DNA of 64,000 nucleotides, taken from NCBI GenBank assembly GCA_964430945.1, contig CAYSHH010000004.1, forward strand, positions 334 to 64,333, given 5' to 3'. Source of the DNA: an uncultured Candidatus Saccharibacteria bacterium (lineage in GTDB: Bacteria; Patescibacteriota; UBA1384; JAMDBS01; CAYSHH01). Under the pieces are notes generated by a model, which was not told where the DNA came from, ran no database searches, and saw only the letters and a program-made list of their open reading frames with translations. Shown piece by piece: positions 16,866 through 38,084 of this stretch (the stretch's first letter is position 1; each line of letters opens with the position of its first letter). The translations under genes were made by a program, and so were the position numbers.

Positions 16866-16989
16866 GTAAATTATATTGCATAAAAAAATAATTGTCAATA
16901 TATCAAATATTACTTTTCAACTTTACGAATTTTGTCTGGTACGAGATAATACATACACACATTGTCAATATTAGCTAAATAAAAATGCT

Positions 16990-19387: not shown

Positions 19388-19505
19388 GACATAAAAATAT
19401 CAATCACAATATTGCAATCGAAATTTAAAAAAAATAGCCAAATATATTATTCCAAATAAAAGGATGTTCTAGACCGAGTACATGAATTATCAGTAGATAT
19501 CCAAC

Positions 19506-19534
19506 AAAAAAAAGAACCCCATAAAATAGGGTTC
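19506..19534 (-). terminator. Hairpin terminator (gaaccc...gggttc) with a T-run on the minus strand, downstream of the 19559-20209 gene
   Basis: The stem gaaccc/gggttc has a 9-nt loop. A run of A8 on the plus strand gives a U-run for the minus-strand transcript. Confidence 0.4.
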
Positions 19535-19558
19535 GTAAAATCGATACACGATATATGA

Positions 19559-20209: not shown

Positions 20210-20528
20210 TAGTCCTTCGAAAGATTAATTCTCCCAAAAGCCCAGCTGAATATTTATTGCTAAATCGTAAATACTCAACTGATCGTATGGGAGAAAATAT
20301 TTTTAAGATACAATCATGAACTCAACTAAAATACACAAATTTCTCTGTTTTGTCAATTTGGTCAAAATATATTTTTCTTGTTCAATCTAAAGTCTCTTGG
20401 TTTTTATAGAAAGTCATTCTAATTTTCATTGCTTCTTATACCCTAAAAATGCTATAATCAAACTGAAATTACTTCGGTTTTTTTATTGTTACCAAAACAT
20501 TATTTACCAGCAGATTATTCTTACAAAT

Positions 20529-22007: not shown

Positions 22008-22077
22008 TATTAGAATAAAATATTTATTAATTGATCTATATTAAGTCGTAAAACAAGATCAGTGGGACATATTACAT

Positions 22078-23154: not shown

Positions 23155-24274
23155 ACCAAAATTAATAATTGTTACAGAAGGGCTTAGAAGAGATAATCAA
23201 AAACCTCTTCAATATTTTTATAAAATAAATGTTACTCATCTTTATGAATCTGCTCCATATGGTAATGAGACAAAAGAAGATTTAAAAGGTGCTATCAAAT
23301 TTTCTGGCGCCCAGGATCTTTATAATAAATTATTAAAATTTAAGCCAGACATAATCCAAGGTCCCGAACCATATGGATCACGCAAAATGTTTATGTATTC
23401 AATAGCATCATATAGGGCTGCCAAAAAACTTAAAGTTCCATTGATTTTTCCTTTCTGGGAAAACAGGCCACCCGAAAAAAGATTTAATTGGGCACAAAGA
23501 GTGATAGTTAACTTATTTGCTAAAATTTATATCAACTATGCATCTCTTGTGATTTATATAAATAATGGTGCTCTAAAAAATATTAAAGCGCTTGGTATAA
23601 AAGACAAGACAAAATTGGTCAAATTCCTTTGGGGAACATGGGGAGTAGATGTTGATGAATTTAAGCCATCGAAAACAACTATAAAAAACAAAGTTCAAGA
23701 TAAGACAATCCTTTACGTTGGGCGCATTGTCAGAGAAAAGGGTATTCAGTATCTTCTTGAGGCATTTTCCAAAGTACACAAACAATTTCCCAAAACCAAG
23801 TTGCTCATCATTGGTTCAGGTGATATGAAGGACTATGTCGAAGAATTTCGTACAAAAAAACATCTAGAAAACAGCATTATTCTAAAAAGACCGGTAAAAA
23901 ATGAAGATATTCCAATCTATTATCAAAATGCCACAATATTTTGTTCCCCAGCTATTACTATTTCTTGGTGGGCAGAACAGGTCGGCATGACCAATATCCA
24001 AGCTATGGCCTGTGGTACACCAGTAGTCTCGACCAATTCAGGAGGTATTCCAGAATATGTTCCCAATAAAATTACTGGATTTCTAGTACCAGAGAAAGAT
24101 TCTTCTCGACTTGCCTCGGCCATGATACGACTTCTTGATGATGACGAACTAAGAAATAAGATTTCTCAACAATGTGTGGCTTACGCTAGGCAACACTATG
24201 ATGCACAAAAAAATATCCATAAAGCACAAAATATGATATTGGAGATATTAAGAAATGAAAAACATAAAAAATAA
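23144..24274 (+). CDS. Glycosyltransferase family 4
   Basis: VGRIVREKGI ... QAMACGTPVVSTNSGGIPEYV, a GT4 C-terminal domain. Confidence 0.8.
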   Translation: MTNKPKLIIVTEGLRRDNQKPLQYFYKINVTHLYESAPYGNETKEDLKGAIKFSGAQDLYNKLLKFKPDIIQGPEPYGSRKMFMYSIASYRAAKKLKVPLIFPFWENRPPEKRFNWAQRVIVNLFAKIYINYASLVIYINNGALKNIKALGIKDKTKLVKFLWGTWGVDVDEFKPSKTTIKNKVQDKTILYVGRIVREKGIQYLLEAFSKVHKQFPKTKLLIIGSGDMKDYVEEFRTKKHLENSIILKRPVKNEDIPIYYQNATIFCSPAITISWWAEQVGMTNIQAMACGTPVVSTNSGGIPEYVPNKITGFLVPEKDSSRLASAMIRLLDDDELRNKISQQCVAYARQHYDAQKNIHKAQNMILEILRNEKHKK

Positions 24275-25673
24275 TTGGTTTTACTTTCTCTTAAGTGCGG
24301 TATTTGCACTAATTTTTGGATACATTCTCGCGATGTACAACATTTACGCAATTTTTGTATTAGTTGGTATTATTGGATTTTTTGTCATTACTCACTATGT
24401 TTTTAAAAACCCATTCACAGGACTTCTTATGATTTTCTTTTTTCTTCCTTTTACTAGAATTCCAAATATTGATATCGGACCAATAAGTTTACAGATCAAT
24501 CAGCTTGTAGGATTGATCACGCTTCTTGCGTTTGCTCTTTCTGTTTTAGTCAACAAAGAAAAAATCCGTTCTTTCGCACTCACTTGGCCACTTATTTTTT
24601 TCTGGACAGCTCTAATAATCTCACTCTTTTTTACTGGTGATATTTCTCGCTCACTCACCGTACTAATATTTGTCATCTTTACGTCACTTTTTTCAATATT
24701 ACCTAATCAATATATTGACAATAAAGAAAAACTAGAAAAAGTAATTATCATACTTTTTTGGTCGACACTCATGGTTTGTATATTTGGCATATTTCAGTTT
24801 CTCGGAGATGTGATTGGCCTGCCCACATCAATTACTGGGCTTAGAGAAGGATATACTAGTGCGGTCTTTGGATTTCCTCGTGTCCAAGCATTTTCTATCG
24901 AACCATTATATCTAGGAAATTATTTATTATTTCCACTTAGTATATTTTTGGCCCTTTTTCTAACTCGCACCAGGGTCAAATTTCTTACTAGACCGATTCT
25001 TTTTGGGATCATATTTTTAATCCTTCTTATCATTGCTCTTACTGTTTCTCGTGGAGCTTATCTTGCGCTTGGAATTATGATCATGGTTATGTTTATTTTT
25101 ATGGCCAAAAAATTTATTACTCCAAAGATTATTACTGTTGCCGTGATTACTATACTCCTTGGTGGTACTGCCATAATTTGGTTTATAAATAAAGGTGAAG
25201 ATAAGGCTTATGATGAATTTATCAAGCATATCACGGTTGAAGATTTCTCCCAGGGAGAATCAGTTCAAGGAAGATTCATCGAATACGAACGAGCACTAGA
25301 GCTAGCCGAAGGCAATGAAACATTTGGCGTCGGAATTGGTGCTTATGGGGTGACTAAAAAAGGATTTCCAGACCACGATGATATATCTGATTACGATATC
25401 GTAAACAATCAATACATCGAACTTTTGACTGAAACAGGCTGGATTGGACTTGGTGCATTTGTATTTATGATTATTTTCATTGCTTGGCGAGGGATCATAG
25501 CTTTCTACAAATCTAAAGACCCACTTATAAAATACGTTCTTGTCGGACTTCTTGGCGCCTTTATTGCCACTATGTTTCAATACAATTTCTTCTCAACTCT
25601 CTATATCATTCCTATCTGGATCCTGATTGGCGTCTTTATAGCTGTGCAGAATTTAGGACTAGAAGATAAATAG
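24255..25673 (+). CDS. O-antigen ligase / Wzy-type polymerase family membrane protein
   Basis: About 11 TM helices plus the Wzy_C-type region (TVSRGAYLALGIMI) and a periplasmic loop. Confidence 0.65.
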   Translation: MKNIKNNWFYFLLSAVFALIFGYILAMYNIYAIFVLVGIIGFFVITHYVFKNPFTGLLMIFFFLPFTRIPNIDIGPISLQINQLVGLITLLAFALSVLVNKEKIRSFALTWPLIFFWTALIISLFFTGDISRSLTVLIFVIFTSLFSILPNQYIDNKEKLEKVIIILFWSTLMVCIFGIFQFLGDVIGLPTSITGLREGYTSAVFGFPRVQAFSIEPLYLGNYLLFPLSIFLALFLTRTRVKFLTRPILFGIIFLILLIIALTVSRGAYLALGIMIMVMFIFMAKKFITPKIITVAVITILLGGTAIIWFINKGEDKAYDEFIKHITVEDFSQGESVQGRFIEYERALELAEGNETFGVGIGAYGVTKKGFPDHDDISDYDIVNNQYIELLTETGWIGLGAFVFMIIFIAWRGIIAFYKSKDPLIKYVLVGLLGAFIATMFQYNFFSTLYIIPIWILIGVFIAVQNLGLEDK

Positions 25674-25692
25674 GAAATGAAAAATATTTGAC

Positions 25693-26316
25693 ATGAATAT
25701 CTATGAAATATTTCTAAAAATTATTTGGATTGTTGTAGCATTATCTTTGGTACCGATATGTACCTACACGATTTTCTATATAATAACTAGGCTTATAGCA
25801 CTCTTTACAATAATCGGTGGATCAATATCTGCAATTTTGGGATTTAATCATCAAAGTACAGACAAAAAAACAAAAAAAATTATTTTAAATATTGATAAAA
25901 TATTTTGGATAAGCGAGACTATATTGCTATTGGCAATCATAATATTTTATTTTTTCAAAGTGCAATACTCTTCTATCATGTTATATCTCGTAGGCGCGAT
26001 AATTGCTATTCACATAATTGTATCCATCATCGTTGGACTGATATACGGCCCAAAAATTAAAATACATTTTTTTAAAAACAACCAAAGGTGCAAGACATCA
26101 TTAAATAGTGACAAGATGGAAGAAGAACAAAAGAAAAAGGATGATGAGAAATATAAAACTGAGCTAGCATACGAAAAGAAATTCAAAAAAAGGTATGGAA
26201 AGATCGCTTGGGAATTGTACAACGATCTCAAAATACTTGGTTGTGTTTTTTATTTGATATATGGATTGTGGATGATGTTTAGTTACATGATTATTGATAT
26301 GATTGAAAGTGATTGA
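25693..26316 (+). CDS. Hypothetical membrane protein
   Basis: Four hydrophobic helices and a Lys/Glu-rich loop. Confidence 0.35.
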   Translation: MNIYEIFLKIIWIVVALSLVPICTYTIFYIITRLIALFTIIGGSISAILGFNHQSTDKKTKKIILNIDKIFWISETILLLAIIIFYFFKVQYSSIMLYLVGAIIAIHIIVSIIVGLIYGPKIKIHFFKNNQRCKTSLNSDKMEEEQKKKDDEKYKTELAYEKKFKKRYGKIAWELYNDLKILGCVFYLIYGLWMMFSYMIIDMIESD

Positions 26317-26404
26317 TAAATCACCAAATATTGTGCAAATCCCGAAACAAGAATCCATTTTAAAATAAAATAATCACTGAGCACATAAAAAATGTTAAAT
26401 AATC

Positions 26405-26436
26405 AAAAGTACACCCCGCGGGGTGTACTTTTTTGG
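26405..26436 (+). terminator. Strong Rho-independent terminator (perfect palindrome)
   Basis: aaaagtacaccccg|cggggtgtactttt is followed by tttgg. It marks the boundary before the AT-rich defense island. Confidence 0.6.
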
Positions 26437-26783
26437 GTTAGGAAATTAAGGAATCGGTTGAAAATATAACAGGTTGGGAGTATGATTTAGATATGTTATT
26501 TAGACAAAGTAAGAAGTCTGGTAAACCAGCTAAGATGATGAAATTAGAATCGATCAAAGAGCTTAGTTTTGATTTGGAAAAAGATATCCAAACTCTTACA
26601 GAAAAAACTCTGCCGAGATAAAAAATTGAATTAATCTGAAAAAATAAAAAAACAAGGACCTAAAATGTCAAAAGATCAGAAAGCCAAACAAAAACCAAAC
26701 TTGTCCACATAGTTAATAATTTATTATTTGATATAATATATTATATACATACCCGGAAGTCGTGAGTATTGTAGGAGGGAAAA

Positions 26784-27821
26784 ATGAAAAAATATACGGT
26801 TGTTGATTTGTTTTCAGGATCTGGAGGTTTGTCTCTTGGTTTTGAACAAGTCGGATTTAAAAATGTATTTTCAGTAGATTTTATGAAAGATTATTGTGAT
26901 ACTTATAGAAAAAATTTCCCTCATCATAAATTAATCCAAAAAGATATAAGTAAAATATCTGATAAAGAAATATTGAAATTATCTAAAAATAAAGAGATTA
27001 ATGTTGTTGTTGGAGGTCCTCCTTGTCAAGGATTTAGTATGGCTGGAAAAATAGGCAGAACTTTTGTTGATGATCCTAGAAACCATTTATTTAAGGAATT
27101 TGCAAGAATAGTTTCGCTAACTAAACCTAAAATTTTTGTTATGGAAAATGTAGCAAGATTATATACACATAACAATGGAAAAACTAGGAAAGAAATTATT
27201 GATAAATTTCATCAATTAGGTTATGAAGTTAAATGTAAAATTTTATGTTCTGCTGATTATGGTGTACCTCAAATTAGAAATAGAATTATTTTTATTGGTA
27301 ATAGATTAGGACTAAAAAATACTTTTCCTGAAAAAACATACAATAAGGATACACAAACCACAATCGGAAATAAAAAAATAAAAAAATGGAAATCAATCAA
27401 AGAAGCAATAGATGATTTACCCAAACTTAAATCAGGAGAAAGTTCAGATATTCCTAATCACGAAGCTATGTCACACACACAAGAGATGTTAAATAAGATG
27501 GATTTTATTAAAGATGGTGGAGATAGAAATCAAATTCCTATTAATCTTAGACCTAAAACAGGAGATATAAGAAAATATATTAAATATAATAGTTCAAAAC
27601 CTTCAATTTGTATCACAGGAGATATGAGAAAAGTCTTTCACTATAATCAAAATAGAGCTTTAACTGTTAGAGAATTGGCGAGAATTCAATCATTTCCAGA
27701 TTCCTTTGTCTTTAATGGAAATAAGATTTCACAACAACAACAAGTAGGAAATGCGGTTCCTCCGTTAATGGCTAAAGCCATTGCAGAAGGAATAAAAGAG
27801 ATGTTAAAACAAAATGAATAA
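26784..27821 (+). CDS. DNA (cytosine-5)-methyltransferase
   Basis: Motif I DLFSGSGG, motif IV GGPPCQGFS, motif VI ENV, motif VIII QIRNR and motif X GNAVPP are all present. There is a strong SD (AGGAGGG) 6 nt upstream. Confidence 0.9.
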   Translation: MKKYTVVDLFSGSGGLSLGFEQVGFKNVFSVDFMKDYCDTYRKNFPHHKLIQKDISKISDKEILKLSKNKEINVVVGGPPCQGFSMAGKIGRTFVDDPRNHLFKEFARIVSLTKPKIFVMENVARLYTHNNGKTRKEIIDKFHQLGYEVKCKILCSADYGVPQIRNRIIFIGNRLGLKNTFPEKTYNKDTQTTIGNKKIKKWKSIKEAIDDLPKLKSGESSDIPNHEAMSHTQEMLNKMDFIKDGGDRNQIPINLRPKTGDIRKYIKYNSSKPSICITGDMRKVFHYNQNRALTVRELARIQSFPDSFVFNGNKISQQQQVGNAVPPLMAKAIAEGIKEMLKQNE

Positions 27822-28821
27822 ATTACCTAAAATAAATTTTATTGGAAATAAAGAAAAAATTGTCGATTGGATTTGTGATAATATTCCAAAAAATGTTAAT
27901 TCCGTATTTGATGCTTTTTCAGGTGGTGCTTCAGTTAGTTTTGAAGCAAAAAAAAGAGGATTTAAAGTTTTAAGTAATGATATATTAGAAATCAATTATT
28001 TACTTTCAAAAGCACTGATTGAAAATAATAAAATCACTCTTAATGAAAAAGATATCAAAACTATTTTTTCAGGTAATCCAGTAAAGGGATTTATGTATAA
28101 AAATTATTCGGAAGTTTATTTCTTCTCAGAAGAGTGTATGGAACTAGATTTGTATCGAAAAAATATTGAAAAATTAGATTCAGATTATAAAAAAGCTTTA
28201 GCTTTCTCTTTGATTAGAAGGTCAATGATTAGAAAAATGCCCTATTCGAGATTTACTCTTCCGTGGGATAAGATTAAACAATTAAGAGATGAAGAATATA
28301 GTTATAAAAAATATAAACGAAGAAGAGCCTATCACAATCAAAGTTTTAAAGAACATTTTTTAGATAATCTTAACGAGTACAATAAAGCAATTTTTGATAA
28401 TAAGAAAGATAATAAAGCGTTTAATTCAGACATTTTTCAATTAATACCGAAGATTAATGCTGATTTAATTTATCTCGATCCTCCATACACTGGAACAATG
28501 AATAATTATTTTGGTTTTTATGGTCTTATAGATGAATATTTGAAACAGAAAAAATTAAAGCCTTTTGAAAATGATTTTATTGATAAAAATATAGCATTGG
28601 ATTTATTTGATAATTTATTCTCTAAGTTAGGAAAATACAAATATTGGTTTTTGAGTTATAATAATTCTTCATATCCAACTAAAGAACAATTACTTAGTTT
28701 ATTGAAGAAATATTCCAAAGATGTTAAGGTAATAGAACGAAAACATAATTATCAAGTAACAGGAAAAACAAAGAAGACTAAAAATAAAGAATATTTATTT
28801 ATTGTTAAAACAAAGAAGTAA
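27814..28821 (+). CDS. Dam-family (D12-class, alpha-type) N6-adenine DNA methyltransferase
   Basis: Motif I region NFIGNKEKI...DAFSGGASV near the N-terminus and motif IV LDPPY at about residue 215. It overlaps the m5C methyltransferase by 8 nt. Confidence 0.8.
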   Translation: MNKLPKINFIGNKEKIVDWICDNIPKNVNSVFDAFSGGASVSFEAKKRGFKVLSNDILEINYLLSKALIENNKITLNEKDIKTIFSGNPVKGFMYKNYSEVYFFSEECMELDLYRKNIEKLDSDYKKALAFSLIRRSMIRKMPYSRFTLPWDKIKQLRDEEYSYKKYKRRRAYHNQSFKEHFLDNLNEYNKAIFDNKKDNKAFNSDIFQLIPKINADLIYLDPPYTGTMNNYFGFYGLIDEYLKQKKLKPFENDFIDKNIALDLFDNLFSKLGKYKYWFLSYNNSSYPTKEQLLSLLKKYSKDVKVIERKHNYQVTGKTKKTKNKEYLFIVKTKK

Positions 28822-28822
28822 A

Positions 28823-29902
28823 ATGACAAAATCAAAAAAACAAATATATGAGAATTATTGGAGTATAACTCTTGCATATACTGATTTAAATTCTAAAAAG
28901 TTTATTGAGACTTTAAGGGCAATTGTTAATTTTATTGATTCTCACAATACTTTAAAATTTGATTCTAGAATGTATCAAGATCTACAAGAAGAAGTAGGAG
29001 AAGTAAATGGTTTGTCTGGAACTTCATTAAGAAAAAGTATTAATCAATTTGTTAAGTTGGGTTTTATAAATTATAAATTACATTCATATCACAAAGATTG
29101 TAAAATATTTCTAGAAGCTAGAGCTTGTAGAAAAAGAAGAACGATATTTTCCAAAATTGTTTACGAAAATTCTTCATTTAATAGAGATATAACTAAAGAT
29201 TCTCAAGAAAGAGAAGTAAACTTTTTATTGAAGACTCTAGAAGAAGTTGGGCAATTAAGGAAAGAAGATATTGCTGCATTAATGACTCAAAAAATTAGTG
29301 AATATCCAAAGGGATATCTAACCGAAGAAGAATTGGAAGATGCAAAACAAAACGCAAATGAAATAAAATTTTATGAAAGAAAATATAATCAAGTAAGTCA
29401 TCTTAGAACAGTCTTAAGTAAACTTGATGATTTAGTTATGGTATCTGGAACAATATATTTTGAAGAAGATGCAAAAGTTGCATTTGGAGAAGATTTTAAA
29501 GCTCAACTTAGAGTAAGGGATAATTATTTACATAGACTATACAAAAATCAGCTTAAAGAAGAATCTGAAGAAAGAGAAGGAGAAATTATGTGTATGGTAG
29601 AATTGTTAGATTATCCTTCATTAGTTGCTAGTCATATTAAACCATTCATAAAATCAAATGATGAAGAAGCATATGACCCTGAAAATGGTTTATTACTCAG
29701 CAGAAATATGGATGTTTTATTTGACCAAGGTTATATTTCTTTTACAGATGAAGGAAAAATTATTCTATCCAAAGAGCTTTCAGAAGATTTAAAAGAGTTT
29801 TTAAAAGATTATGGTTTAAAGAAAATATACTTAACAAAAAAGAGATTGAAATTTTTAAAATTCCATAGGCAAAGAGTGTTTAAAAAAAATAATTTTACAT
29901 AA
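28823..29902 (+). CDS. HNH-type endonuclease, probable restriction endonuclease of the RM module
   Basis: The C-terminal region CMVELLDYPSLVASHIKPF...ENGLLLSRNMDVLFDQGYISF matches the HNH_2-type (PF13391-like) motif H-I-x-P...N-G-L...H-x-x-F-D. The N-terminal roughly 250 aa are unassigned and could be the DNA-recognition part. The start is placed at the ATG immediately after the methyltransferase stop. Confidence 0.6.
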   Translation: MTKSKKQIYENYWSITLAYTDLNSKKFIETLRAIVNFIDSHNTLKFDSRMYQDLQEEVGEVNGLSGTSLRKSINQFVKLGFINYKLHSYHKDCKIFLEARACRKRRTIFSKIVYENSSFNRDITKDSQEREVNFLLKTLEEVGQLRKEDIAALMTQKISEYPKGYLTEEELEDAKQNANEIKFYERKYNQVSHLRTVLSKLDDLVMVSGTIYFEEDAKVAFGEDFKAQLRVRDNYLHRLYKNQLKEESEEREGEIMCMVELLDYPSLVASHIKPFIKSNDEEAYDPENGLLLSRNMDVLFDQGYISFTDEGKIILSKELSEDLKEFLKDYGLKKIYLTKKRLKFLKFHRQRVFKKNNFT

Positions 29903-30149
29903 AGATAAAGCACAAGAAATTTTTACTTTATCTGCATATCACTATTTTGGTAGAAAACAGACAGAGGAAAAAATCATGGGTAAAAGATCGTATTCTAAGT
30001 ATGCTTGAAGACACAATGTATGTACGCCTTAAAACAACTCTAAACAATAAAATTGAACCAGATGACCAACATTGGCAAAAAAAAGGAAAATCGTATTATA
30101 AATTTTTAAAAAATATTATGAACAAATCCCATTATTAATATAGGAAAAA

Positions 30150-30230
30150 ATGGAAATTGATAAAATAGTTTATCGTCTTTATGGTCTAAATTCAAATGAA
30201 TTTATTGTAATAGAAAATTCAATCAAATAA
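30150..30230 (+). pseudogene. 26-codon relic resembling the conserved C-terminal tail of Type IIG/PglX/Eco57I-like N6-adenine methyltransferase-restriction proteins
   Basis: MEIDKIVYRLYGLNSNEFIVIENSIK resembles the ...IDxxVYxLYGLTxEEIxIVE* tail seen at the C-terminus of many large gamma-class m6A methyltransferase/restriction fusion proteins. This is remembered from known families, not searched. An in-frame stop lies immediately upstream. Confidence 0.3.
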
Positions 30231-30235
30231 TTATT

Positions 30236-30991
30236 ATGTCAGATTATTACAACCCTCAAAGAACAAGAAATTTGTATGATCCGAACTCTAGCAATCCATT
30301 TAAATTAAGTAGATCTAAACTAGAGCTATTTTTAAATTGTCCTCGTTGTTTTTATTTAGATAGAAGATTAGGAGTCAGACAACCTCCTGGATATCCTTTC
30401 GCATTGAATAGCGCAGTTGATCACTTGCTAAAAAAAGAATTTGATCTATATAGAAAAAATGGAGATACGCATCCGCTTATTGCTAAATACAAAGTAGATG
30501 CAAAGCCAGTAAATCACAAAATGCTCGATATTTGGCGAGAGAACTTTAAAGGTGTTCAATATCTGCATGAGCCGACTAATCTTTTAATTACAGGTGCAAT
30601 AGATGACCTATGGATTAATTCTAAGGGCGAATATATTGTCGTTGATTACAAGGCTACAAGCAAGGACGAAGATATTACTTCTCTAAATAAATCATGGCAT
30701 GACGGATATAAACGCCAAATGGAAATATATCAGTGGCTATTAAGAAAAAACGGTCTAAAAGTGTCTGATATTGGGTATTTTGTATATTGTAACGGTTGCA
30801 CAGATCGAGACATTTTTGATTGTAAATTAGATTTTAATTTAACTCTGATTGCACATAAAGGCAACGACTCATGCGTCGAAAAAGCAGTCATCGATGCTCA
30901 CAAATGTCTAAACAGAAACCAAATCCCTGAAGCATCACCTGATTGTGATTACTGTAGGTATGTCAGTGCAAGAAAGAAAATAAGTGCATAA
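30236..30991 (+). CDS. PD-(D/E)XK nuclease of the RecB/Cas4-like (Fe-S cluster, DUF83-type) family
   Basis: N-terminal Cys pair (LNCPRCFYL), motif II/III GAIDDL...IVVDYKAT, the QxxxY motif (RQMEIYQWL) and C-terminal Cys (CNGC ... CDYCRY). This is the Cas4-like four-Cys arrangement. Confidence 0.65.
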   Translation: MSDYYNPQRTRNLYDPNSSNPFKLSRSKLELFLNCPRCFYLDRRLGVRQPPGYPFALNSAVDHLLKKEFDLYRKNGDTHPLIAKYKVDAKPVNHKMLDIWRENFKGVQYLHEPTNLLITGAIDDLWINSKGEYIVVDYKATSKDEDITSLNKSWHDGYKRQMEIYQWLLRKNGLKVSDIGYFVYCNGCTDRDIFDCKLDFNLTLIAHKGNDSCVEKAVIDAHKCLNRNQIPEASPDCDYCRYVSARKKISA

Positions 30992-31009
30992 TAGCTTTTG
31001 GAAAGTATA

Positions 31010-32677
31010 ATGTATATAGAAAAAATTAAAATTTATAATTTTAAATGCTTCGAGGAATTTTCACTTAACTTAAAAGATGGTTTAAATATTCTTGTGGGCG
31101 ATAATGAGGCGGGTAAATCTACTATTTTAGAGGCAATACACCTGGCTCTGACTGGTTTATTGAATGGAAAATATTTAAAATTAGAGTTAACTCCAGATTT
31201 ATTTAACAATCAAACAAAAAGAAAATACATTAAGAGTTTACATAAAACTATTCTGCCAGAAGCAATTCCCGTACCCCCAGAAATAGTAATCGAATTATAT
31301 TTTAATGGATTTAAGCCAGAAGATGATTCATTAAAAGCATTATTTGAAGGTACAGGCAATACAGATAAAACAAAGTCTTGTGGTATTAAATTTAAAATTA
31401 ATTTTAATGAAACATATAGAGAATATTATGAAGAGCTAGTGAAGCAAGATGATGCAATACAATCAATACCAACAGAGTATTATGAATTTTCTTGGGCTTC
31501 TTTTGCTAGAGATGAAAAAGTAACTCCTTTTAATATCCCAATTAAATCTGCTCCTATAGATTCTTCAACCATAAGATATAAAAGCGGATCCGATGTTTAT
31601 ATATCTAGAATAGTTAGAGATCACTTAGAAAATGAAGACAAAATTAAGGTCGATCATGCTTATCGTAGGTTGAAGGATAAATTTATAGAAGATAGTTCAA
31701 TTAAAAACGTTAATGAAGTCATAAAGAAAGCTATAGACATATCTAGTAAAAAGGTGGAAATTTCCTTAGATTTATCGGTGAATGCCTGGGAAACTAGCCT
31801 TACAACTTATCTCGATGATGTGCCTTTTCATTATATTGGAAAGGGTGAACAATGTGTTGTTAAAACCAAATTAGCATTGAGTCATAAAAAATCACAAGAA
31901 GCTAATGTTCTATTAATTGAGGAATTGGAAAATCATTTATCATACACAAAACTTAACAGTCTTATTGGTGATATAAAGAAAAATAGTAAAAAGCAGATAA
32001 TAATTTCAACGCATAGTAGTTTTGTTGCCAATAAATTGGGTTTAGATCACATAATAATGATTAACGTAAAAGCTGATAGAAGCACTAGAGCAATAGCAAT
32101 GCTTAAAGATTTGTCAAATGACACCCAATTGTTTTTTGAAAAGTTATCTGGATACGATACACTCCGATTGATACTATGCAAAAAAGCAATACTTGTCGAA
32201 GGTGATTCTGATGAGTTAATTATTCAGCGTGCATATTTGGATAAATTCACTCGATTGCCAATTGAAAATCAAATAGATGTTATTTCTGTAGGAACAGCAT
32301 TTCTAAGATTTTTAGAAATAGCCGATAAATTAGACAAAAATACTTGTGTAGTAACAGACAATGATGGAGACTATAAAACTAAGATTGAAAATAAATATAG
32401 CAAATATAAAGATAGCGAGTGTATTAAAATTTGTTACGATAAAAATGATGACTTAAATACACTGGAACCTCAACTTGTTGAAGCAAATAGTGATAATCTC
32501 GATAATTTAAGAAAAGTATTAGATATTTTAGAAAAAAACTATCCAGGAAAGGACGATATTATTAAATACATGATAAATAATAAAACTAAGAGTGCTTTAA
32601 AAATATTCCAGTCCGAAGAATGTATTAACTATCCAGAATATATTTTAAATGCAATTAAGGGTGGCGATGATTCTTAA
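31010..32677 (+). CDS. gajA: OLD-family ATP-dependent endonuclease (ABC-type ATPase + Toprim), GajA-like
   Basis: N-terminus MYIEKIKIYNFKCFEEF...LNILVGDNEAGKSTILEAI (Walker A), Toprim glutamate in ILVEGDSDELI and the DxD motif in VVTDNDGD. SD ggaaag lies 5 nt upstream. A UvrD-like gene follows immediately. Confidence 0.75.
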   Translation: MYIEKIKIYNFKCFEEFSLNLKDGLNILVGDNEAGKSTILEAIHLALTGLLNGKYLKLELTPDLFNNQTKRKYIKSLHKTILPEAIPVPPEIVIELYFNGFKPEDDSLKALFEGTGNTDKTKSCGIKFKINFNETYREYYEELVKQDDAIQSIPTEYYEFSWASFARDEKVTPFNIPIKSAPIDSSTIRYKSGSDVYISRIVRDHLENEDKIKVDHAYRRLKDKFIEDSSIKNVNEVIKKAIDISSKKVEISLDLSVNAWETSLTTYLDDVPFHYIGKGEQCVVKTKLALSHKKSQEANVLLIEELENHLSYTKLNSLIGDIKKNSKKQIIISTHSSFVANKLGLDHIIMINVKADRSTRAIAMLKDLSNDTQLFFEKLSGYDTLRLILCKKAILVEGDSDELIIQRAYLDKFTRLPIENQIDVISVGTAFLRFLEIADKLDKNTCVVTDNDGDYKTKIENKYSKYKDSECIKICYDKNDDLNTLEPQLVEANSDNLDNLRKVLDILEKNYPGKDDIIKYMINNKTKSALKIFQSEECINYPEYILNAIKGGDDS

Positions 32678-33797
32678 GAATAAGTTAATCATTGCAGCTG
32701 CGGGATCGGGAAAAACTACCCATATCGTTGAGGATGCTCTCCAACAAGATAATAAAGTTCTTATAACAACTTTTACCGAAGCGAATAGAGATGAAATAGA
32801 AAGAAAAATATTAAAATATAAAAAATATATTCCTAAGAATATAACAATTCAAACATGGTTTTCGGTTTTATTGCAACATGGAGTAAGACCCTATCAAGAC
32901 AAAATGAACGACGCACTATACGATAAGAAAGTAGGATTTTATTTATGTGAAGGAAAATCAGGGCTAAAAGCTAAGAATAAGTCGGGTATACCAATTTACT
33001 GGGGAGAAAAAGATTTTTTTCATTTCTATTTTACTAAAGATTTAAAAATATATTCAGATAAGATATCTAAATTTGTTTATAACTGTAATAAAAAAACCAA
33101 TAATGAAGTTGTAAATAGGCTTACAAGAATATATCAAAATATTTATATAGATGAGATTCAAGACTTAGCTGGGTGGGATTTAGATTTAATAAAATTATTA
33201 TTAAAATCATCATCTCAGGTAGTTATGGTTGGAGATCCTAGACAAGCAACTTATACGACTAATGACTCCTCTCGATTTAAAAAGTATCGAGGTAGAATTG
33301 ATAATTTTATAATTAATGAATGTTCTAAAAATATCTGTGATATTGACTTAAAAACATTAAATAAATCTCATAGAAATTGTGAAAATATTTGCAAATTTTC
33401 TTCAAAATTATATCCCGAATATCAAGAGTGTGTTTCGTGTGGTTGTGATACTTGTAAAAAAGATAATCAGGGACATGAAGGAATATTTTTAGTTAGCCCG
33501 GATGACGTTTCAGATTATTGTAGTAAATACGAAAATATTAAAAAATTACGTTATAGTAAAGCTAAAAATACGGAAATTAATTTTGGAGCATCTAAAGGAT
33601 TGGGATTTGATAGAATAATTATTTTTCCAACTCAAAATATCCTAAAATATTTAAAATCCGGAAATATATCAGACATAGAGTCAATAAAAGCAAAATTTTA
33701 CGTTGCCTTGACGAGAGCAAGACATAGTGTTGCTATTGTTTGTAATTATAAAAAAGAAGATCAATATATTGAAGGAATTAATAAGTATTTAGAATAA
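32667..33797 (+). CDS. gajB: UvrD/Rep-like SF1 helicase, compact; GajB-like
   Basis: Motif I IIAAAGSGKTT, motif II IDEIQD, motif III VGDPRQA and motif VI VALTRARHSV. It overlaps gajA by 11 nt and is about 377 aa from this start. Confidence 0.7.
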   Translation: MILKNKLIIAAAGSGKTTHIVEDALQQDNKVLITTFTEANRDEIERKILKYKKYIPKNITIQTWFSVLLQHGVRPYQDKMNDALYDKKVGFYLCEGKSGLKAKNKSGIPIYWGEKDFFHFYFTKDLKIYSDKISKFVYNCNKKTNNEVVNRLTRIYQNIYIDEIQDLAGWDLDLIKLLLKSSSQVVMVGDPRQATYTTNDSSRFKKYRGRIDNFIINECSKNICDIDLKTLNKSHRNCENICKFSSKLYPEYQECVSCGCDTCKKDNQGHEGIFLVSPDDVSDYCSKYENIKKLRYSKAKNTEINFGASKGLGFDRIIIFPTQNILKYLKSGNISDIESIKAKFYVALTRARHSVAIVCNYKKEDQYIEGINKYLE

Positions 33798-34005
33798 TAT
33801 TTATACTGGATAGTCTCCCTTCCACCTAGTCCTCTAAGTGTAAGAACAGGTCTAAAATTATTAACATAAAAAAATAACCATAATTGTAAAAACTATGAGC
33901 AAGACAAATTTACTTAACTATAAAAAAGTATAACGTAGTACATAATTTATATTATATATAGTGACTTTGGCAAAAATGTGCTAATGCAATAATTAAAGTT
34001 ATTTT

Positions 34006-34014
34006 TGATATAAT
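34006..34014 (+). promoter_or_regulatory. TG-extended -10 (TGaTATAAT) immediately upstream of the ydcF-like gene
   Basis: TGATATAAT ends 9 nt before the ATG, implying a very short or no leader. An identical TGATATAAT occurs at 26729-26737 upstream of the RM operon. Confidence 0.3.
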
Positions 34015-34023
34015 TTAATTATA

Positions 34024-34611
34024 ATGAAAAAATATGACGCAGTACTTATACTAGGCAGGGGGATTGATGAGCATGGAAACATGCCAGAAGTTGCCTATGG
34101 TCAAGTTCGAAAAGCAGTCAAACTTTTTAAAAATGACCAAACCAAAAATCTCATTTTTTGTGGCAGATGGTCATATCATGACAAATACGATCACGTGGCA
34201 ACCGAAGCTGAAACCATGGCCAAATATGCGAGCGATCTTGGTGTACCAGATGAGTCAATTCACATCGAAGACAAGTCAGAGGCAACTGTTATAAATATCT
34301 GTAATGCCAAACGAGAATTTCTAAAACCAAAGGGTTGGAAAAACATTGCTTTTATCACTTTGTATCCACTCGTTCCAAGGATCAAGCTCAATGCCGAGTA
34401 TGTACTTGGAGATGAGTATACTTGTGACTACATCGATGCTGGTATAAGATATCCCAAAGACATAGAAGCTAAAAAACTTGCCTCCGAAACTCGCAAGATG
34501 AAAGGCGAAGCAGTAAGTTTTATAAAAACTTTTACCAAAGGTGACGACGAAGCAATCTATAAAGCCGCCACCCTCGAACTTGCCAAACGCAAACAAAAAA
34601 TTAATAAATAA
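34024..34611 (+). CDS. YdcF/ElyC-family (DUF218) protein
   Basis: The pattern AVLILGRGIDEHG...NLIFCGRWSYH...ETMAKYASDLGVPDESIHIEDKSEATVIN matches the DUF218 pattern (ILGGG...SGG...EA..M......GV....I..E..S.nT). Confidence 0.55.
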   Translation: MKKYDAVLILGRGIDEHGNMPEVAYGQVRKAVKLFKNDQTKNLIFCGRWSYHDKYDHVATEAETMAKYASDLGVPDESIHIEDKSEATVINICNAKREFLKPKGWKNIAFITLYPLVPRIKLNAEYVLGDEYTCDYIDAGIRYPKDIEAKKLASETRKMKGEAVSFIKTFTKGDDEAIYKAATLELAKRKQKINK

Positions 34612-34693
34612 TATTACTTAGTATTTTTATTATTATTTAATATGTTATTTTTTGTATGTTATAATTTTAATATACTAAATAAGGCAAGAAACC

Positions 34694-35101
34694 ATGTGGA
34701 AATGCAAAAAATGCAATCGTGAATTTCAAAAAGTAAATCAAATGCACTCATGTAGGTCTTTTGCACTCGTGGATCATTTTAAAAACAAAGAAAAAGCCAA
34801 GGAACTTTTTGAGTGTTTAAAGTCTAAAATTACAAAAGAAATCGGACCCGTGAAAATCGAATCTTTGCCATGCTGTATCCACTTTGTAAGCTCATACACT
34901 TTTGGCGCATGTTGGGCTATGAAAGATAAAATTCGAGTTGATTTTCGCCTTGAGCATCCGATTAAAACTGATAGACCTCACAAATTAAATAAAATCTCTG
35001 CAAATAGATATTTGTATTATTTTGATATCTCCGAAAAATCCGAAATTGATAGAGATCTTATCGGCTGGTTTCGTGATTCTTACAAACTTAAAAATAGTTA
35101 A
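34694..35101 (+). CDS. Hypothetical protein with N-terminal CxxC pair
   Basis: 135 aa beginning MWKCKKCNREF...HSC. No confident family. Confidence 0.3.
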   Translation: MWKCKKCNREFQKVNQMHSCRSFALVDHFKNKEKAKELFECLKSKITKEIGPVKIESLPCCIHFVSSYTFGACWAMKDKIRVDFRLEHPIKTDRPHKLNKISANRYLYYFDISEKSEIDRDLIGWFRDSYKLKNS

Positions 35102-35159
35102 TTCACAATATTTAATCACCAATATTAATTAATTGTGTTATTTATAATGCAAGGAAGGG

Positions 35160-36779: not shown

Positions 36780-36940
36780 TAAAAAAGTGAATCTCCCGCA
36801 AGCTTACGCTCAGGGAATTAATTTATTTTTAAATGGGCTCCAACATAACCAATTTTACACTTCTAAGGAGTTGAAACCCACTTCGGGGACGTTTTTTTAT
36901 TTGTGATACAATATAATAAATTAAAATGTTTAGGAGGTAA

Positions 36941-37954: not shown

Positions 37955-37976
37955 ATATTAATAAAATATTTTAAAT

Positions 37977-38005
37977 AAAAGCAGCTATTTCCTAGCTGCT
38001 TTTAT
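37977..38005. terminator. Bidirectional hairpin terminator between the convergent BNR-protein and MFS genes
   Basis: aaaagcagcta-tttcc-tagctgctttt, with A/T runs on both sides. Confidence 0.5.
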
Positions 38006-38084
38006 TATTTGAATTTTGATCATAAATCAACTACTTCAGTTTCACTTTACTTGTTCCATCTGGAATATGTCTTTTTTTATTAAA

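What the first reader, a model, noticed from the sequence alone, without database searches (positions are those of the whole stretch)
26440..33800. AT-rich defense island, likely horizontally acquired, between a strong terminator and ydcF
From the palindromic terminator at 26405-26436 to about 33800 the sequence is visibly more AT-rich than both flanks. By eye, 60-nt samples are about 23% GC inside against about 40% GC in the amidohydrolase gene downstream. The island contains only defense functions: an RM module, a relic of a second RM gene, a Cas4-like nuclease and a Gabija-like pair. No integrase or flanking direct repeats were found.
Basis: seen in the sequence. Interest (0 to 1): 0.6.

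Follow-up and report, generated by a model that had tools for sequence, protein, structure and literature searches.

The report
Mosaic defence island in CPR bacterium
A roughly 8 kb stretch of an uncultured ultra-small (Patescibacteria) bacterium's genome is a patchwork of separately acquired anti-virus genes, including a restriction-modification cassette also found in tiny archaea and in Neisseria; it is a clear but ordinary example of a horizontally acquired defence island.

Summary
It is also uneven. A three-gene Type IIS restriction-modification (RM) cassette (26777-29887, 26.2% GC) causes most of the dip. The Gabija-type pair is only mildly AT-shifted, at 28.4%. The "Cas4-like" PD-(D/E)XK gene has host-like composition, at 34.3%. 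The RM cassette is 83.5% nt-identical to copies in DPANN archaeal contigs, and a protein-level homologue (46-63% aa) lies in Neisseria gonorrhoeae. In both it is a low-GC insert, so it is clearly mobile. In the one close relative found, homology to the window stops exactly at the end of Wzy_C (25670) and resumes 29 bp before the DUF218 gene (33995), with unrelated AT-rich cargo on the inner side of each break. The variable segment is therefore about 25671-33994, wider than proposed. Stubs of a type IIG RM gene and of a candidate defence gene point to turnover. The PD-(D/E)XK gene belongs to an abundant, conserved family with no general link to defence genes, so "only defence functions" is overstated. 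No integrase, tRNA or att repeats were found. Verdict: a horizontally acquired mosaic defence island, a new member of a known kind, of modest interest.

The parts
25693..26316 (+). 207-aa predicted membrane protein with no homologues.
   Evidence: The only match among 5.8 billion proteins is itself. GC is 28.5%. The relative L108 has unrelated DNA directly after Wzy_C.
26405..26436 (.). Perfect palindromic hairpin with an A-run and a T-run; looks like a bidirectional terminator.
   Evidence: Sequence. The scan gives 12 pairs, 5 of them G-C.
26493..26621 (+). Possible 5' stub of a lost candidate defence gene (PDC-S18-like N-terminus).
   Evidence: The 42-aa peptide matches positions 8-33 of 302 in PADLOC model PDLC04945, E 1e-4. 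A stop follows, and no continuation appears in other frames.
26784..27821 (+). C5 cytosine DNA methyltransferase, first gene of the Type IIS RM cassette.
   Evidence: PF00145 2.6e-81. PADLOC MTase_II 373 bits. Motifs FSGSGG, PCQ, ENV and QIRNR are present. It sits in a >=90% identity cluster with 12 members, one named from a Nanoarchaeota MAG. GC3 is 13.6%.
27814..28821 (+). D12-class N6-adenine DNA methyltransferase, second gene of the cassette.
   Evidence: PF02086 1.9e-36. PADLOC PDLC03385 502 bits, full length. DPPY motif present. 84% aa identity to the DPANN copy.
28823..29902 (+). HNH-type Type II restriction endonuclease, third gene. The ATG at 28823 is the likely start; the ORF opens at a TTG at 28802.
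   Evidence: PADLOC REase_II PDLC03529 353 bits, full length. PF13391 HNH_2. PDB 6yex 'HNH endonuclease' E 5e-17. 84% aa identity to the DPANN copy and 46% to the N. gonorrhoeae copy.
26777..29887 (+). Extent of the mobile RM cassette as defined by nucleotide homology.
   Evidence: 83.5% nt identity over 3115 bp to L020, L021, L023 and L024. GC 26.2% and dinucleotide delta* 144 against 50 +/- 16; none of 129 background windows is as extreme on either measure.
30150..30230 (+). 3' stub of a lost type IIG RM gene. The rest of the 29903-30235 spacer is full of stops.
   Evidence: The peptide matches the last positions of PADLOC REase_MTase_IIG models (1041-1064 of 1066, E 0.0036; 1223-1245 of 1247, E 0.014). 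tblastn hits lie under genes annotated as TaqI-like C-terminal domain or N-6 methylase. Frames are shown.
30236..30991 (+). Stand-alone PD-(D/E)XK nuclease of the Cas4-like fold family. It has host-like composition and is not shown to be a defence gene.
   Evidence: PF12705 3.6e-12. The cas4 TIGR00372 score is 33 bits against a cut-off of 65. GC 34.3%, delta* normal. 91.5% nt and 95% aa identity to L015-L018, which have no Gabija. The family is abundant, with no conserved neighbours.
31010..32677 (+). GajA-type OLD-family ABC ATPase with a TOPRIM nuclease domain. The ATG at 31010 is the likely start; the ORF opens at a TTG at 30998.
   Evidence: PADLOC GajA PDLC00102 683 bits, full length. AAA_15 and OLD-like_TOPRIM domains. 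Motifs GDNEAGKS, EELE, STHS, VEGDSD and DND are present. 54% identity to the pBM69 homologue.
32649..33797 (+). Short (382 aa) GajB-type UvrD-like SF1 helicase. It overlaps the GajA-type gene by 29 bp.
   Evidence: PADLOC GajB PDLC00148 418 bits, full length against a 369-position model. UvrD-helicase and UvrD_C domains. Motifs GSGKT, DEIQD, GDPRQ and TRA are present. 52% identity to the 372-aa pBM69 partner.
33814..33864 (+). 51-bp conserved non-coding element of unknown role, shared with the L015-type loci.
   Evidence: 88% identity to L015 13585-13634 and to L016-L018. Single copy in the window. No Rfam match and no stable fold, z = 0.79. Absent from viral contigs and from the other loci.
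33995..34611 (+). Right anchor: the point where homology to the close relative resumes, followed by the DUF218 (YdcF-family) gene at 34024-34611.
   Evidence: L012 2049-2667 matches window 33995-34608 at 94%. PF02698 9e-14.
24255..25673 (+). Left anchor: the Wzy_C (O-antigen ligase-like) gene. Homology to the close relative ends at 25670.
   Evidence: L108 5-1310 matches window 24364-25670 at 79%. PF04932 is listed for this gene.

Best explanation
The window comes from a Patescibacteria (CPR) bacterium. Between a Wzy_C gene and a DUF218 gene lies a variable segment of about 8.3 kb (about 25671-33994). It holds a patchwork of modules that appear to have arrived separately rather than as one island.

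(1) An intact three-gene Type IIS RM cassette of the NgoAXVI/HphI kind. By analogy with NgoAXVI, the m6A methylase would mark one strand of an asymmetric site and the m5C methylase the other, and the HNH enzyme would cut unmodified incoming DNA. This step is inferred. The cassette is a gene-boundary-precise mobile unit, also found as AT-rich foreign DNA in DPANN archaea and in Neisseria.

(2) Two stubs of older defence genes: the 3' end of a type IIG gene and the 5' end of a PDC-S18-like gene. These show earlier occupants were overwritten.

(3) A stand-alone Cas4-like PD-(D/E)XK nuclease with host-like composition. It is more probably a repair or recombination gene than a defence gene, and it is not a Gabija or RM accessory.

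(4) A Gabija-type pair of a divergent short-GajB subfamily that is common on plasmids. From published Gabija work, recalled and not tested here, the ATPase-TOPRIM nuclease is held inactive by cellular nucleotides and cuts DNA when phage replication depletes them, with the helicase partner assisting.

Insertion left no integrase, tRNA or att repeats. The most likely route is therefore recombination-driven cassette replacement at a hotspot, not site-specific integration. Shown: composition, gene identities, intact catalytic motifs, homology boundaries, and different cargo in a relative. Inferred: enzyme specificities, anti-phage activity, and the order and mechanism of insertion.
For: Composition. 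Gene identities. Intact catalytic motifs.

RM cassette: 83.5% nt identity to DPANN contigs, whose flanks carry archaeal genes (S28e, L7Ae) and where the cassette is 26.1% GC inside 39-43% GC. The same gene order occurs in N. gonorrhoeae at 63, 60 and 46% aa identity, as a 33-39% GC block inside 52-60% GC. NgoAXVI is described as a 5mC MTase, a 6mA MTase and a REase, Type IIS, motif GGTGA (PMC6789123).

Relative from sample SRR22388161: homology stops at window 25670 and resumes at 33995. The DNA on the inner side of each break is unrelated and AT-rich (27.3% and 23.0% GC).

Stubs.

PD-(D/E)XK independence.

Gabija subfamily on plasmids with the same two-gene layout.

Host is Patescibacteria: with bacterial cell-wall and ribosome genes.

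No integrase, tRNA or repeats.

Independent assembly: the Logan contigs tile the same order, and one contig links D12 MTase, HNH, PD-(D/E)XK, GajA and GajB.
Against: Only one close relative was found, and it is seen as two short, unlinked contigs. So absence of the block in relatives rests on a single population and on assumed synteny.

The Gabija pair's dinucleotide signature is not distinguishable from the host. Nothing closer than 54% identity was found in the plasmid or viral collections, and its >=90% identity clusters hold only this genome's sequences. Its foreign origin therefore rests on mild AT bias, its position and its patchy distribution.

Neither Gabija-type protein matches the solved B. 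cereus Gabija chains in pairwise search, even at E <= 10.

The stubs have weak E-values (0.0036 and 1e-4).

The left and right junctions with the CPR flanks are spanned only by the deposited contig plus 12-13 nt overlaps between Logan contigs.

GGTGA is not depleted in the window, so there is no support for that specificity.
Confidence: 0.8

Rival explanations
1. The whole block arrived in one event as the cargo of a single integrative or conjugative element. That element has since lost its integrase and ends. On this view the island was not built piecemeal.
For: All genes are on one strand with short gaps. The PD-(D/E)XK gene and the 51-bp element at 33814-33864 both recur in L015-L018, next to relaxase, coupling-protein and T4SS pilin genes. 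This suggests descent from an ICE-like segment with swapped cargo.
Against: The modules differ sharply in composition: RM 26.2% GC with an aberrant signature, PD-(D/E)XK 34.3% and host-like, Gabija 28.4%. Their closest relatives are in different places: DPANN for the RM cassette, ICE-adjacent loci for PD-(D/E)XK, and nothing close for Gabija. RM homology ends within 7-15 bp of the gene ends, with no shared flanks. Gene stubs lie between modules. No integrase or repeats were found.
Confidence: 0.12
2. The region is native. Its low GC reflects ordinary within-genome variation in an AT-rich, streamlined genome, not horizontal transfer.
For: Another stretch (9438-12579) is 26-30% GC and contains the core gene rsgA. 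The PD-(D/E)XK gene and the Gabija pair have dinucleotide signatures within the background range.
Against: The RM cassette is more extreme than all 129 background windows in both GC and signature. It is 83.5% nt-identical to copies in archaea, where it is also foreign. The close relative has different DNA at both junctions. GajA's nearest homologues found are on Bacillus and Rhizobium plasmids at 50-54% identity.
Confidence: 0.04
3. The island is an assembly or binning artefact. DNA from other organisms in the sample, for example a DPANN archaeon, was joined by mistake into a CPR contig.
For: The independent Logan assembly of the same run breaks at 26655, 27985 and 33619, and the next contig starts at 33794, all close to module edges. 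The RM cassette resembles DPANN DNA.
Against: The Logan contigs tile the window at 100% identity in the same order. One of them joins D12 MTase, HNH, PD-(D/E)XK, GajA and GajB. The unique spacer 26644-26776 is present upstream of the MTase in L109, and 26317-26655 follows the CPR flank in L002. Identity to the DPANN copies is 83.5%, not about 100%, and no archaeal flank is present. Two assemblies give the same order.
Confidence: 0.04
4. The PD-(D/E)XK nuclease is a functional third component, either of this Gabija variant or of RM systems in general.
For: It ends 6-18 bp before the GajA-type gene. In three contexts it lies next to methylase or restriction-type genes: the window; L015, with two MTases and an SNF2/ResIII helicase; and L025, with an N6_N4 MTase and a ResIII protein.
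Against: None of 46 metagenome loci with flanks has GajA, GajB or this RM nearby. Among 149 neighbours there are 209 Pfam families, none in more than 4 members, and most are housekeeping. The same Gabija subfamily on plasmid pBM69 has no such gene. The 95%-identical copy in L015 has no Gabija. Its composition differs from both neighbours.
Confidence: 0.04

Closest known systems
NgoAXVI / HphI-type Type IIS restriction-modification systems
   Same: Three genes in the same order: an m5C MTase, an m6A (D12-class) MTase and a REase. There is full-length homology to the three-gene N. gonorrhoeae locus at 63, 60 and 46% aa identity. The two-methylase logic fits an asymmetric site (PMC6789123). The REase is HNH-type.
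   Different: The REase is only 46% identical, so specificity cannot be assumed. That the gonococcal locus I matched is NgoAXVI is inferred from the paper's description, not from an annotation. The host is a CPR bacterium, and the nearest copies are in DPANN archaea.
Gabija (GajA/GajB), that is, class 2 OLD-family nuclease plus UvrD-like helicase
   Same: An ABC-ATPase plus TOPRIM protein is followed by an overlapping SF1 UvrD-like helicase. There are full-length top hits to PADLOC GajA and GajB subfamily models. All ATPase, TOPRIM and helicase motifs are intact.
   Different: GajB is short (382 aa; the matching PADLOC model is 369 positions). Neither protein hits the solved B. cereus Gabija chains by pairwise search. 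The subfamily is the one spread on Rhizobium, Bacillus and enterobacterial plasmids. I found no record of anti-phage testing for it, though I did not search specifically.
Solo Cas4-family / PDDEXK_1 nucleases of small-genome bacteria and archaea (Hudaiberdiev et al. 2017, PMC5704561)
   Same: It is a PD-(D/E)XK fold with conserved cysteines and lies outside any CRISPR-cas locus. It is abundant and conserved, with non-specific neighbourhoods, and occasionally sits on mobile elements. This matches the paper's picture of solo Cas4 behaving like a 'regular' gene in CPR and DPANN genomes.
   Different: It falls in Pfam PF12705, not the Cas4 family proper (PF01930), and is below the TIGR00372 cut-off. 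Its cysteine pattern (CPRC...CNGC...C...CDYC) does not follow the Cas4 spacing as I recall it.
Defence islands and genomic islands carrying RM systems in Patescibacteria (PMC12455944; PMC12259885)
   Same: Several defence systems are clustered in an AT-shifted variable region of a CPR genome. There is evidence of exchange with DPANN archaea, as those papers report in general terms.
   Different: Here the exchanged unit is pinned down to gene-boundary resolution, and the island can be seen to be a mosaic with gene stubs. There is no integrase or tRNA target.

Membership tests
Type II(S) RM, NgoAXVI/HphI type | m5C methyltransferase with conserved motifs I, IV, VI and VIII | tested here: met
   PF00145 2.6e-81, full length. 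FSGSGG, PCQ, ENV and QIRNR are present.
Type II(S) RM, NgoAXVI/HphI type | A second methyltransferase, of the N6-adenine class, with the DPPY motif | tested here: met
   PF02086 1.9e-36. PADLOC MTase_II 502 bits. DPPY at residue 222.
Type II(S) RM, NgoAXVI/HphI type | Cognate restriction endonuclease adjacent to the methylases | tested here: met
   PADLOC REase_II PDLC03529 353 bits over 10-362. HNH_2 domain. PDB 6yex 5e-17. The reading frames overlap the methylase genes.
Type II(S) RM, NgoAXVI/HphI type | Homology and synteny with the characterised gonococcal system | tested here: inconclusive
   All three proteins match one N. gonorrhoeae locus in the same order. That record is unannotated. 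Equating it with NgoAXVI rests on the description in PMC6789123.
Type II(S) RM, NgoAXVI/HphI type | Recognition of GGTGA with cleavage at a distance | not testable with these tools
   GGTGA O/E in the window is 0.95, which is uninformative. Methylome or enzyme data are needed.
Gabija | GajA: N-terminal ABC-type ATPase plus C-terminal TOPRIM nuclease with catalytic acidic residues | tested here: met
   AAA_15 1.7e-17 and OLD-like_TOPRIM 6.8e-12. GDNEAGKS, EELE, STHS, VEGDSD and DND are present.
Gabija | GajB: UvrD-like SF1 helicase encoded immediately downstream | tested here: met
   UvrD-helicase 2.7e-16 and UvrD_C. The genes overlap by 29 bp. GSGKT, DEIQD, GDPRQ and TRA are present.
Gabija | Match to curated Gabija profiles | tested here: met
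   GajA PDLC00102 683 bits (5-554 against 1-530 of 532). GajB PDLC00148 418 bits (10-372 against 2-360 of 369).
Gabija | Detectable sequence similarity to the experimentally characterised B. cereus GajA and GajB | tested here: not met
   No Gabija chain appears among PDB hits even at E <= 10. The best hits are class 1 OLD 6p74 (1.2e-7) and Rep 1uaa (0.008). Pairwise search only; a profile or fold comparison was not possible.
Gabija | Anti-phage activity and nucleotide-gated DNA cleavage | not testable with these tools
   Requires experiment.
Cas4 | Score above the curated Cas4 equivalog threshold | tested here: not met
   TIGR00372 gives 33.3 bits against a cut-off of 65. PADLOC Cas4 models give only 20-41 bits.
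Cas4 | PD-(D/E)XK catalytic motif and QxxxY | tested here: met
   D123...D137-Y-K139 and QMEIY are present. These residues are invariant in the three-sequence alignment.
Cas4 | Four-cysteine Fe-S cluster signature (one N-terminal and three C-terminal Cys) | tested here: inconclusive
   The conserved cysteines are C35, C38, C185, C224, C237 and C240. This pattern does not obviously match the Cas4 spacing. No structure was made.
Cas4 | Association with cas1/cas2 or a CRISPR array | tested here: not met
   There is no CRISPR-like array in the window. No Cas family is among the commonest neighbour families in 46 related loci.
Integrative genomic island | Integrase or recombinase gene | tested here: not met
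   None among the ORFs between 25671 and 33994.
Integrative genomic island | Insertion next to a tRNA/tmRNA gene, with flanking direct repeats | tested here: not met
   The only tRNAs are at 8291-8753. No significant boundary repeats exist; the best is a low-complexity 13-mer at two start codons.
Integrative genomic island | Atypical composition | tested here: met
   The whole segment is 28.0% GC with delta* 63 against 30.5 +/- 9.4; none of 38 background windows is as extreme. The effect comes mainly from the RM cassette.
Integrative genomic island | Absent or different in close relatives | tested here: met
   In the SRR22388161 relative, homology stops at 25670 and resumes at 33995, with unrelated sequence on the inner side. 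This is one relative, seen as two unlinked contigs.
Defence island | Two or more distinct defence systems clustered together | tested here: met
   An RM cassette and a Gabija-type pair lie within 7 kb, together with stubs of a type IIG gene and a PDC-S18-like gene.

The most novel reading that the evidence does not exclude
The gap between Wzy_C and DUF218 may be an integrase-independent defence 'slot' in this CPR lineage. On this reading, cassettes are swapped with gene-boundary precision by recombination, drawing on a pool of AT-rich defence cassettes shared across domains with DPANN archaea. The 37-bp duplicated DUF218 5' end in the relative (L012 1338-1376 and about 2075-2113) and the 51-bp element shared with ICE-adjacent loci would be footprints of that exchange.
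Probability: 0.2. Interest if true: 0.5.

Novelty: new member of a known kind. Interest (0 to 1): 0.3.

Why it matters
CPR bacteria and DPANN archaea have tiny genomes and are reported to carry few defence systems and very few defence islands (PMC12259885). This locus is a concrete case, resolved to the base pair. A complete Type IIS RM cassette is shared at 83.5% nucleotide identity between a Patescibacteria bacterium and DPANN archaea, and it is compositionally foreign in both. It sits in a mosaic with a plasmid-type Gabija pair and the remains of earlier defence genes. That illustrates how streamlined episymbionts turn over defence genes without integrases. It also marks a candidate recombination hotspot that could be followed in population metagenomes. 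None of the components or processes is new in kind. The value is as a well-documented example, and as a caution that 'Cas4-like' genes in such islands need not be defence genes.

Tried and rejected
1. GTDB species representatives, scanned with the amidohydrolase flank gene, gave only hits at 23-36% identity and no synteny. That used the single genome-contig scan to no effect.

2. The 58-64% amidohydrolase homologues on long contigs (L013, L014) showed unrelated contexts, some with transposases. They were useless for synteny.

3. The 207-aa left-flank protein has no homologues, so it could not be used to trace the left junction. Wzy_C's cluster mate was used instead.

4. att-like repeats were sought in three ways: the repeat finder, a pattern search with the DUF218 5' end, and blastn-short between the boundaries. 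Nothing turned up beyond a low-complexity 13-mer.

5. The 51-bp element has no Rfam family, no stable fold, no other copy in the window, and no copy in viral contigs or other loci. Its role is unexplained.

6. Viral contigs hold no relatives of the GajA-type protein.

7. The hypothesis that PD-(D/E)XK is a Gabija or RM accessory was tested on 46 loci and 149 neighbours and rejected.

8. Pairwise PDB searches failed to link the Gabija-type proteins to the solved Gabija chains. Structure prediction was not attempted. No permitted homologue alignment was available, and single-sequence models would have been unreliable.

9. GGTGA depletion was tested as a hint to specificity. O/E was 0.95, which is uninformative.

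10. Promoter-like sites are not enriched over shuffles (49 against 55.8), so no operon structure was inferred from them.

Full report
OBSERVATION. A sliding-window profile and per-gene statistics show that 26440-33800 is 27.9% GC, against 33.6% for the rest of the window. It is the lowest-GC 7.4 kb stretch in the window (0.5% rank), and none of 45 size-matched background windows is as low. Mean GC3 of the six genes is 18.0%, against 26.7% for 47 other genes (Mann-Whitney p = 0.0002). The AT-richness is therefore real and beyond chance. The palindromic hairpin at 26405-26432 is confirmed, with 12 pairs and an A-run and T-run on either side. Low GC alone is not proof of foreign origin in this genome. 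A second stretch at 9438-12579 is 26-30% GC and contains the core GTPase gene rsgA among four NUDIX genes.

GENE CONTENT. All genes are on the + strand.
- 26784-27821: C5 cytosine methyltransferase (PF00145, 2.6e-81).
- 27814-28821: D12-class N6-adenine methyltransferase (PF02086, 1.9e-36; PADLOC MTase_II 502 bits).
- 28823-29902: HNH restriction endonuclease (PADLOC REase_II PDLC03529, 353 bits full length; PDB 6yex 5e-17).
- 30236-30991: PD-(D/E)XK nuclease (PF12705).
- 31010-32677: OLD-family ATPase-TOPRIM protein (PADLOC GajA PDLC00102, 683 bits full length).
- 32649-33797: 382-aa UvrD-like helicase that overlaps the previous gene (PADLOC GajB PDLC00148, 418 bits full length).
Catalytic and nucleotide-binding motifs are intact in all six. 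The ORF finder opens the HNH and GajA frames at TTG codons. An independent gene call on the same sequence uses the ATGs at 28823 and 31010.

STUBS OF OLDER GENES. The 333-bp spacer between the HNH and PD-(D/E)XK genes is full of stops, but it ends with a 26-codon frame at 30150-30230. That peptide aligns to the very last positions of two PADLOC type IIG REase-MTase models: 1041-1064 of 1066 (E 0.0036) and 1223-1245 of 1247 (E 0.014). Its weak tblastn hits in plasmids lie under genes annotated as TaqI-like C-terminal domain or N-6 methylase. Just after the hairpin, a 42-codon frame at 26493-26621 matches the N-terminus (positions 8-33 of 302) of the PADLOC candidate system PDC-S18 (E 1e-4). It may be a second stub. 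Both E-values are modest. The position-specific nature of the matches is what makes them credible.

HOST. Every top hit to the SHMT gene at 2522-3769 that carries an organism name (70-75% identity) is from Patescibacteria/CPR: Doudnabacteria, Levybacteria, Parcubacteria, Liptonbacteria and "Patescibacteria group". The window also encodes bacterial cell-wall and ribosome-biogenesis functions: Peptidase_S11, VanW with PG_binding_4, and RsgA. No close relative exists among GTDB species representatives. The sequence matches Logan contigs of run SRR13007709 and a 68.5 kb NCBI contig.

THE ISLAND IS A MOSAIC. Exact-sequence cluster look-ups followed by context retrieval and blastn give sharply bounded modules.

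(i) RM cassette. Window 26777-29887 aligns at 83.5% nt identity over 3115 bp to DPANN archaeal contigs (L020, L021, L023, L024) and to NCBI DUFN01000011.1 "Nanoarchaeota archaeon" (L019). Gene order is the same, and protein identities are 87, 84 and 84%. Homology begins 7 bp before the first ATG and ends 15 bp before the last stop, with no shared flanks. In the archaeal contigs the neighbours include ribosomal S28e and L7Ae genes and a class-1c tRNA synthetase. There the cassette is 26.1% GC inside 39-43% GC DNA. The same three genes in the same order also occur in N. gonorrhoeae at 63, 60 and 46% aa identity, as a 33-39% GC block within 52-60% GC flanks. In the window the cassette is more extreme than all 129 background windows, both in GC (26.2%) and in dinucleotide signature (delta* 144 against 50 +/- 16). 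This is strong evidence for a mobile, AT-rich cassette that is foreign to all three hosts. PMC6789123 describes the gonococcal NgoAXVI system as two methylases (5mC and 6mA) plus a restriction enzyme, Type IIS, motif GGTGA. That matches this architecture, so I file the cassette as NgoAXVI/HphI-type. The identity of the gonococcal locus is inferred, because the record is unannotated. Specificity is untested, and GGTGA is not depleted in the window (O/E 0.95).

(ii) PD-(D/E)XK gene. Window 30231-30961 is 91.5% nt-identical (95% aa) to L015-L018. There the gene lies beside two other methylases, an SNF2/ResIII helicase, a PLD-family gene, lexA, and conjugation genes (relaxase, coupling protein, T4SS pilin). 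No Gabija is present.

(iii) 51-bp element. A non-coding element just after the GajB-type gene (33814-33864) recurs in those same loci, 2.8 kb downstream of the PD-(D/E)XK gene. The nuclease gene and this element thus bracket different cargo in the two genomes. The element is single-copy, matches no Rfam family and does not fold stably. Its role is unexplained.

(iv) Gabija-type pair. It has no near-identical relatives. GajA is 50-54% identical to homologues on 1,714 plasmid records, from Bacillus methanolicus, Rhizobium, Agrobacterium and enterobacteria, most of them conjugative. Plasmid pBM69 has the same layout, an approximately 549-aa ATPase overlapping a 372-aa UvrD-like gene, with no PD-(D/E)XK gene upstream. 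Its GC (28.4%) is lower than 98.6% of background windows, but its dinucleotide signature is ordinary.

IS THE "CAS4-LIKE" GENE A DEFENCE GENE? Its composition is host-like: 34.3% GC, GC3 25.8%, normal signature. It scores 33 bits against the Cas4 equivalog cut-off of 65. A metagenome scan found at least 579 homologues at 58-74% identity. In 46 loci with usable flanks, none had GajA, GajB or this RM nearby. The 149 nearest neighbours fell into 209 Pfam families, none present in more than 4 members, and most were housekeeping. One 60% homologue lies on a predicted viral contig after an N6_N4 methylase and a ResIII/TnsA-like protein, and before a PIF1-like helicase and a terminase. This fits the published picture of stand-alone Cas4-family genes in CPR and DPANN genomes, which behave as ordinary, mostly vertically inherited genes occasionally picked up by mobile elements (PMC5704561). 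The claim that the island holds "only defence functions" is therefore not supported for this gene. Nor is it supported for the 207-aa membrane ORFan at 25693-26316, which has no homologue anywhere.

RELATIVES AND BOUNDARIES. The amidohydrolase flank gene has a 92% homologue in sample SRR22388161. That contig (L012) keeps the DUF218, DUF5655 and amidohydrolase genes in order at 87-94% nt identity. Homology to the window starts abruptly at L012 2049, which is window 33995, 29 bp before the DUF218 start. Upstream, L012 has unrelated 219-, 175- and 92-aa ORFs with no significant family or defence hits, at 23.0% GC against 32.7% for the rest of the contig. From the same sample, L108 carries the Wzy_C orthologue (79% nt identity). 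Homology there ends at window 25670, the end of that gene, and is followed by unrelated 27.3% GC DNA. The variable segment in the window is therefore about 25671-33994, and the relative carries different, also AT-rich, cargo at both junctions. Three caveats apply. This is one relative. The two contigs are not linked. The middle of its segment is unseen. L012 also has a 37-bp direct repeat of the DUF218 5' end flanking about 735 bp, which looks like an insertion footprint. The window has no second copy of it.

MOBILITY SIGNATURES. There is no integrase or recombinase. The only tRNAs are at 8291-8753. No significant flanking repeats were found. Together with the gene-boundary-precise homology limits and the gene stubs, this favours recombination-driven cassette replacement over site-specific integration. 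This is an inference.

GABIJA MEMBERSHIP. Architecture, motifs and PADLOC subfamily profiles are all met. However, neither protein hits the solved B. cereus Gabija chains in pairwise search, even at E <= 10. The best hits are a class 1 OLD nuclease (6p74, 1.2e-7) and Rep (1uaa, 0.008). I therefore call it a Gabija-type pair (class 2 OLD nuclease plus UvrD-like helicase) of a divergent short-GajB subfamily. The mechanism I assign is nucleotide-gated DNA cleavage, activated when phage replication depletes nucleotides. That comes from the Gabija literature as I recall it and is untested for this subfamily.

ASSEMBLY CHECK. The Logan contigs of the same run tile the window at 100% identity: 14255-26655, 26644-27985, 27973-33619 and 33794-39214. 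One contig links D12 MTase, HNH, PD-(D/E)XK, GajA and GajB. The junctions to the CPR flanks are spanned only by short overlaps plus the deposited contig. A chimera is therefore unlikely but not excluded.

COMPARISON WITH WHAT IS KNOWN, AND VERDICT. RM systems as mobile, AT-rich cargo, Gabija on plasmids, defence islands, defence-enriched HGT in Patescibacteria, and Patescibacteria-DPANN gene exchange are all documented (PMC12455944; PMC12259885). This locus is a well-resolved instance of those patterns, not a new kind of system. Its most notable feature is the complete RM cassette shared at 83.5% nt identity across domains, compositionally foreign in both, inside a mosaic that preserves remnants of earlier occupants. 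Novelty: a new member of a known kind. Interest: 0.3.

Noticed in passing
window 9438-12579 (tRNA cluster at 8291-8753): This is a second low-GC stretch (26-30%). It holds four NUDIX hydrolase genes and the core GTPase gene rsgA, next to a cluster of four tRNA genes (3 Ser, 1 Arg). It shows that low GC is not by itself a sign of foreign DNA in this genome.
   Followed up: partly
window 26493-26621: A 42-codon frame just after the hairpin matches the N-terminus (positions 8-33 of 302) of PADLOC candidate defence model PDC-S18 (E 1e-4). It may be the 5' stub of a lost defence gene.
   Followed up: partly
window 33814-33864; L015 13585-13634 (also L016-L018): A 51-bp non-coding element is conserved at 88% between the window and the ICE-adjacent loci that share the PD-(D/E)XK gene. 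In L015 a terminator-like hairpin follows it, and further downstream there is a sequence complementary to its 5' part. No Rfam match; function unknown.
   Followed up: partly
L012 1338-1376 and about 2075-2113: In the close relative, the first 37 or so nt of the DUF218 gene are duplicated about 735 bp upstream of the gene. The two copies flank a small zinc-finger-like ORF of 92 aa. This looks like an insertion footprint at the same junction as the window's island.
   Followed up: partly
L012 4056-5070, against window 35101-35160: The relative has two extra genes between DUF5655 and the amidohydrolase gene: a 148-aa RF-1-domain protein and a 152-aa ORF. The window lacks both. This is a second indel close to the island.
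   Followed up: no
L019 (NCBI DUFN01000011.1) 9034-9903: In the deposited Nanoarchaeota MAG the D12 methylase of the shared cassette is disrupted. The blastn alignment is split, about 140 bp of the window sequence has no counterpart, and the 289-aa product has no Pfam hit. The other DPANN contigs keep it intact, so the cassette is decaying in one lineage.
   Followed up: no
L025 781-9909 (IMG/VR UViG_3300042876_001093): This predicted viral contig carries, in order, an N6_N4 methylase (839 aa), a ResIII/TnsA-like protein (895 aa), a 60% homologue of the PD-(D/E)XK nuclease, and a PIF1-like helicase, next to a terminase gene. It is a type III-like RM module on a phage-like element.
   Followed up: partly
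window 51913-53241: A full-length serpin gene (PF00079, 9e-121) has low GC (28.8%, GC3 19.6%). It is another candidate for horizontal acquisition in this CPR genome.
   Followed up: no
window 35160-36779; L013, L014: Beyond its two close relatives, the amidohydrolase flank gene's homologues (50-64% identity) come from very diverse lineages, including methanogens and Desulfovibrio relatives. In L013 it lies next to transposase genes. The gene may itself be prone to transfer.
   Followed up: no
L108 1-1346: In the relative, the Wzy_C orthologue is called as two ORFs (127 aa and 308 aa). It is only 79% nt-identical to the window's gene, more diverged than the right-flank genes (87-94%).
   Followed up: no
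window 26783-26795 and 34023-34035: The C5 methylase gene and the DUF218 gene begin with the same 13 nt (AATGAAAAAATAT). This is low-complexity and probably chance, but it sits at the two places where cassette homology starts.
   Followed up: partly
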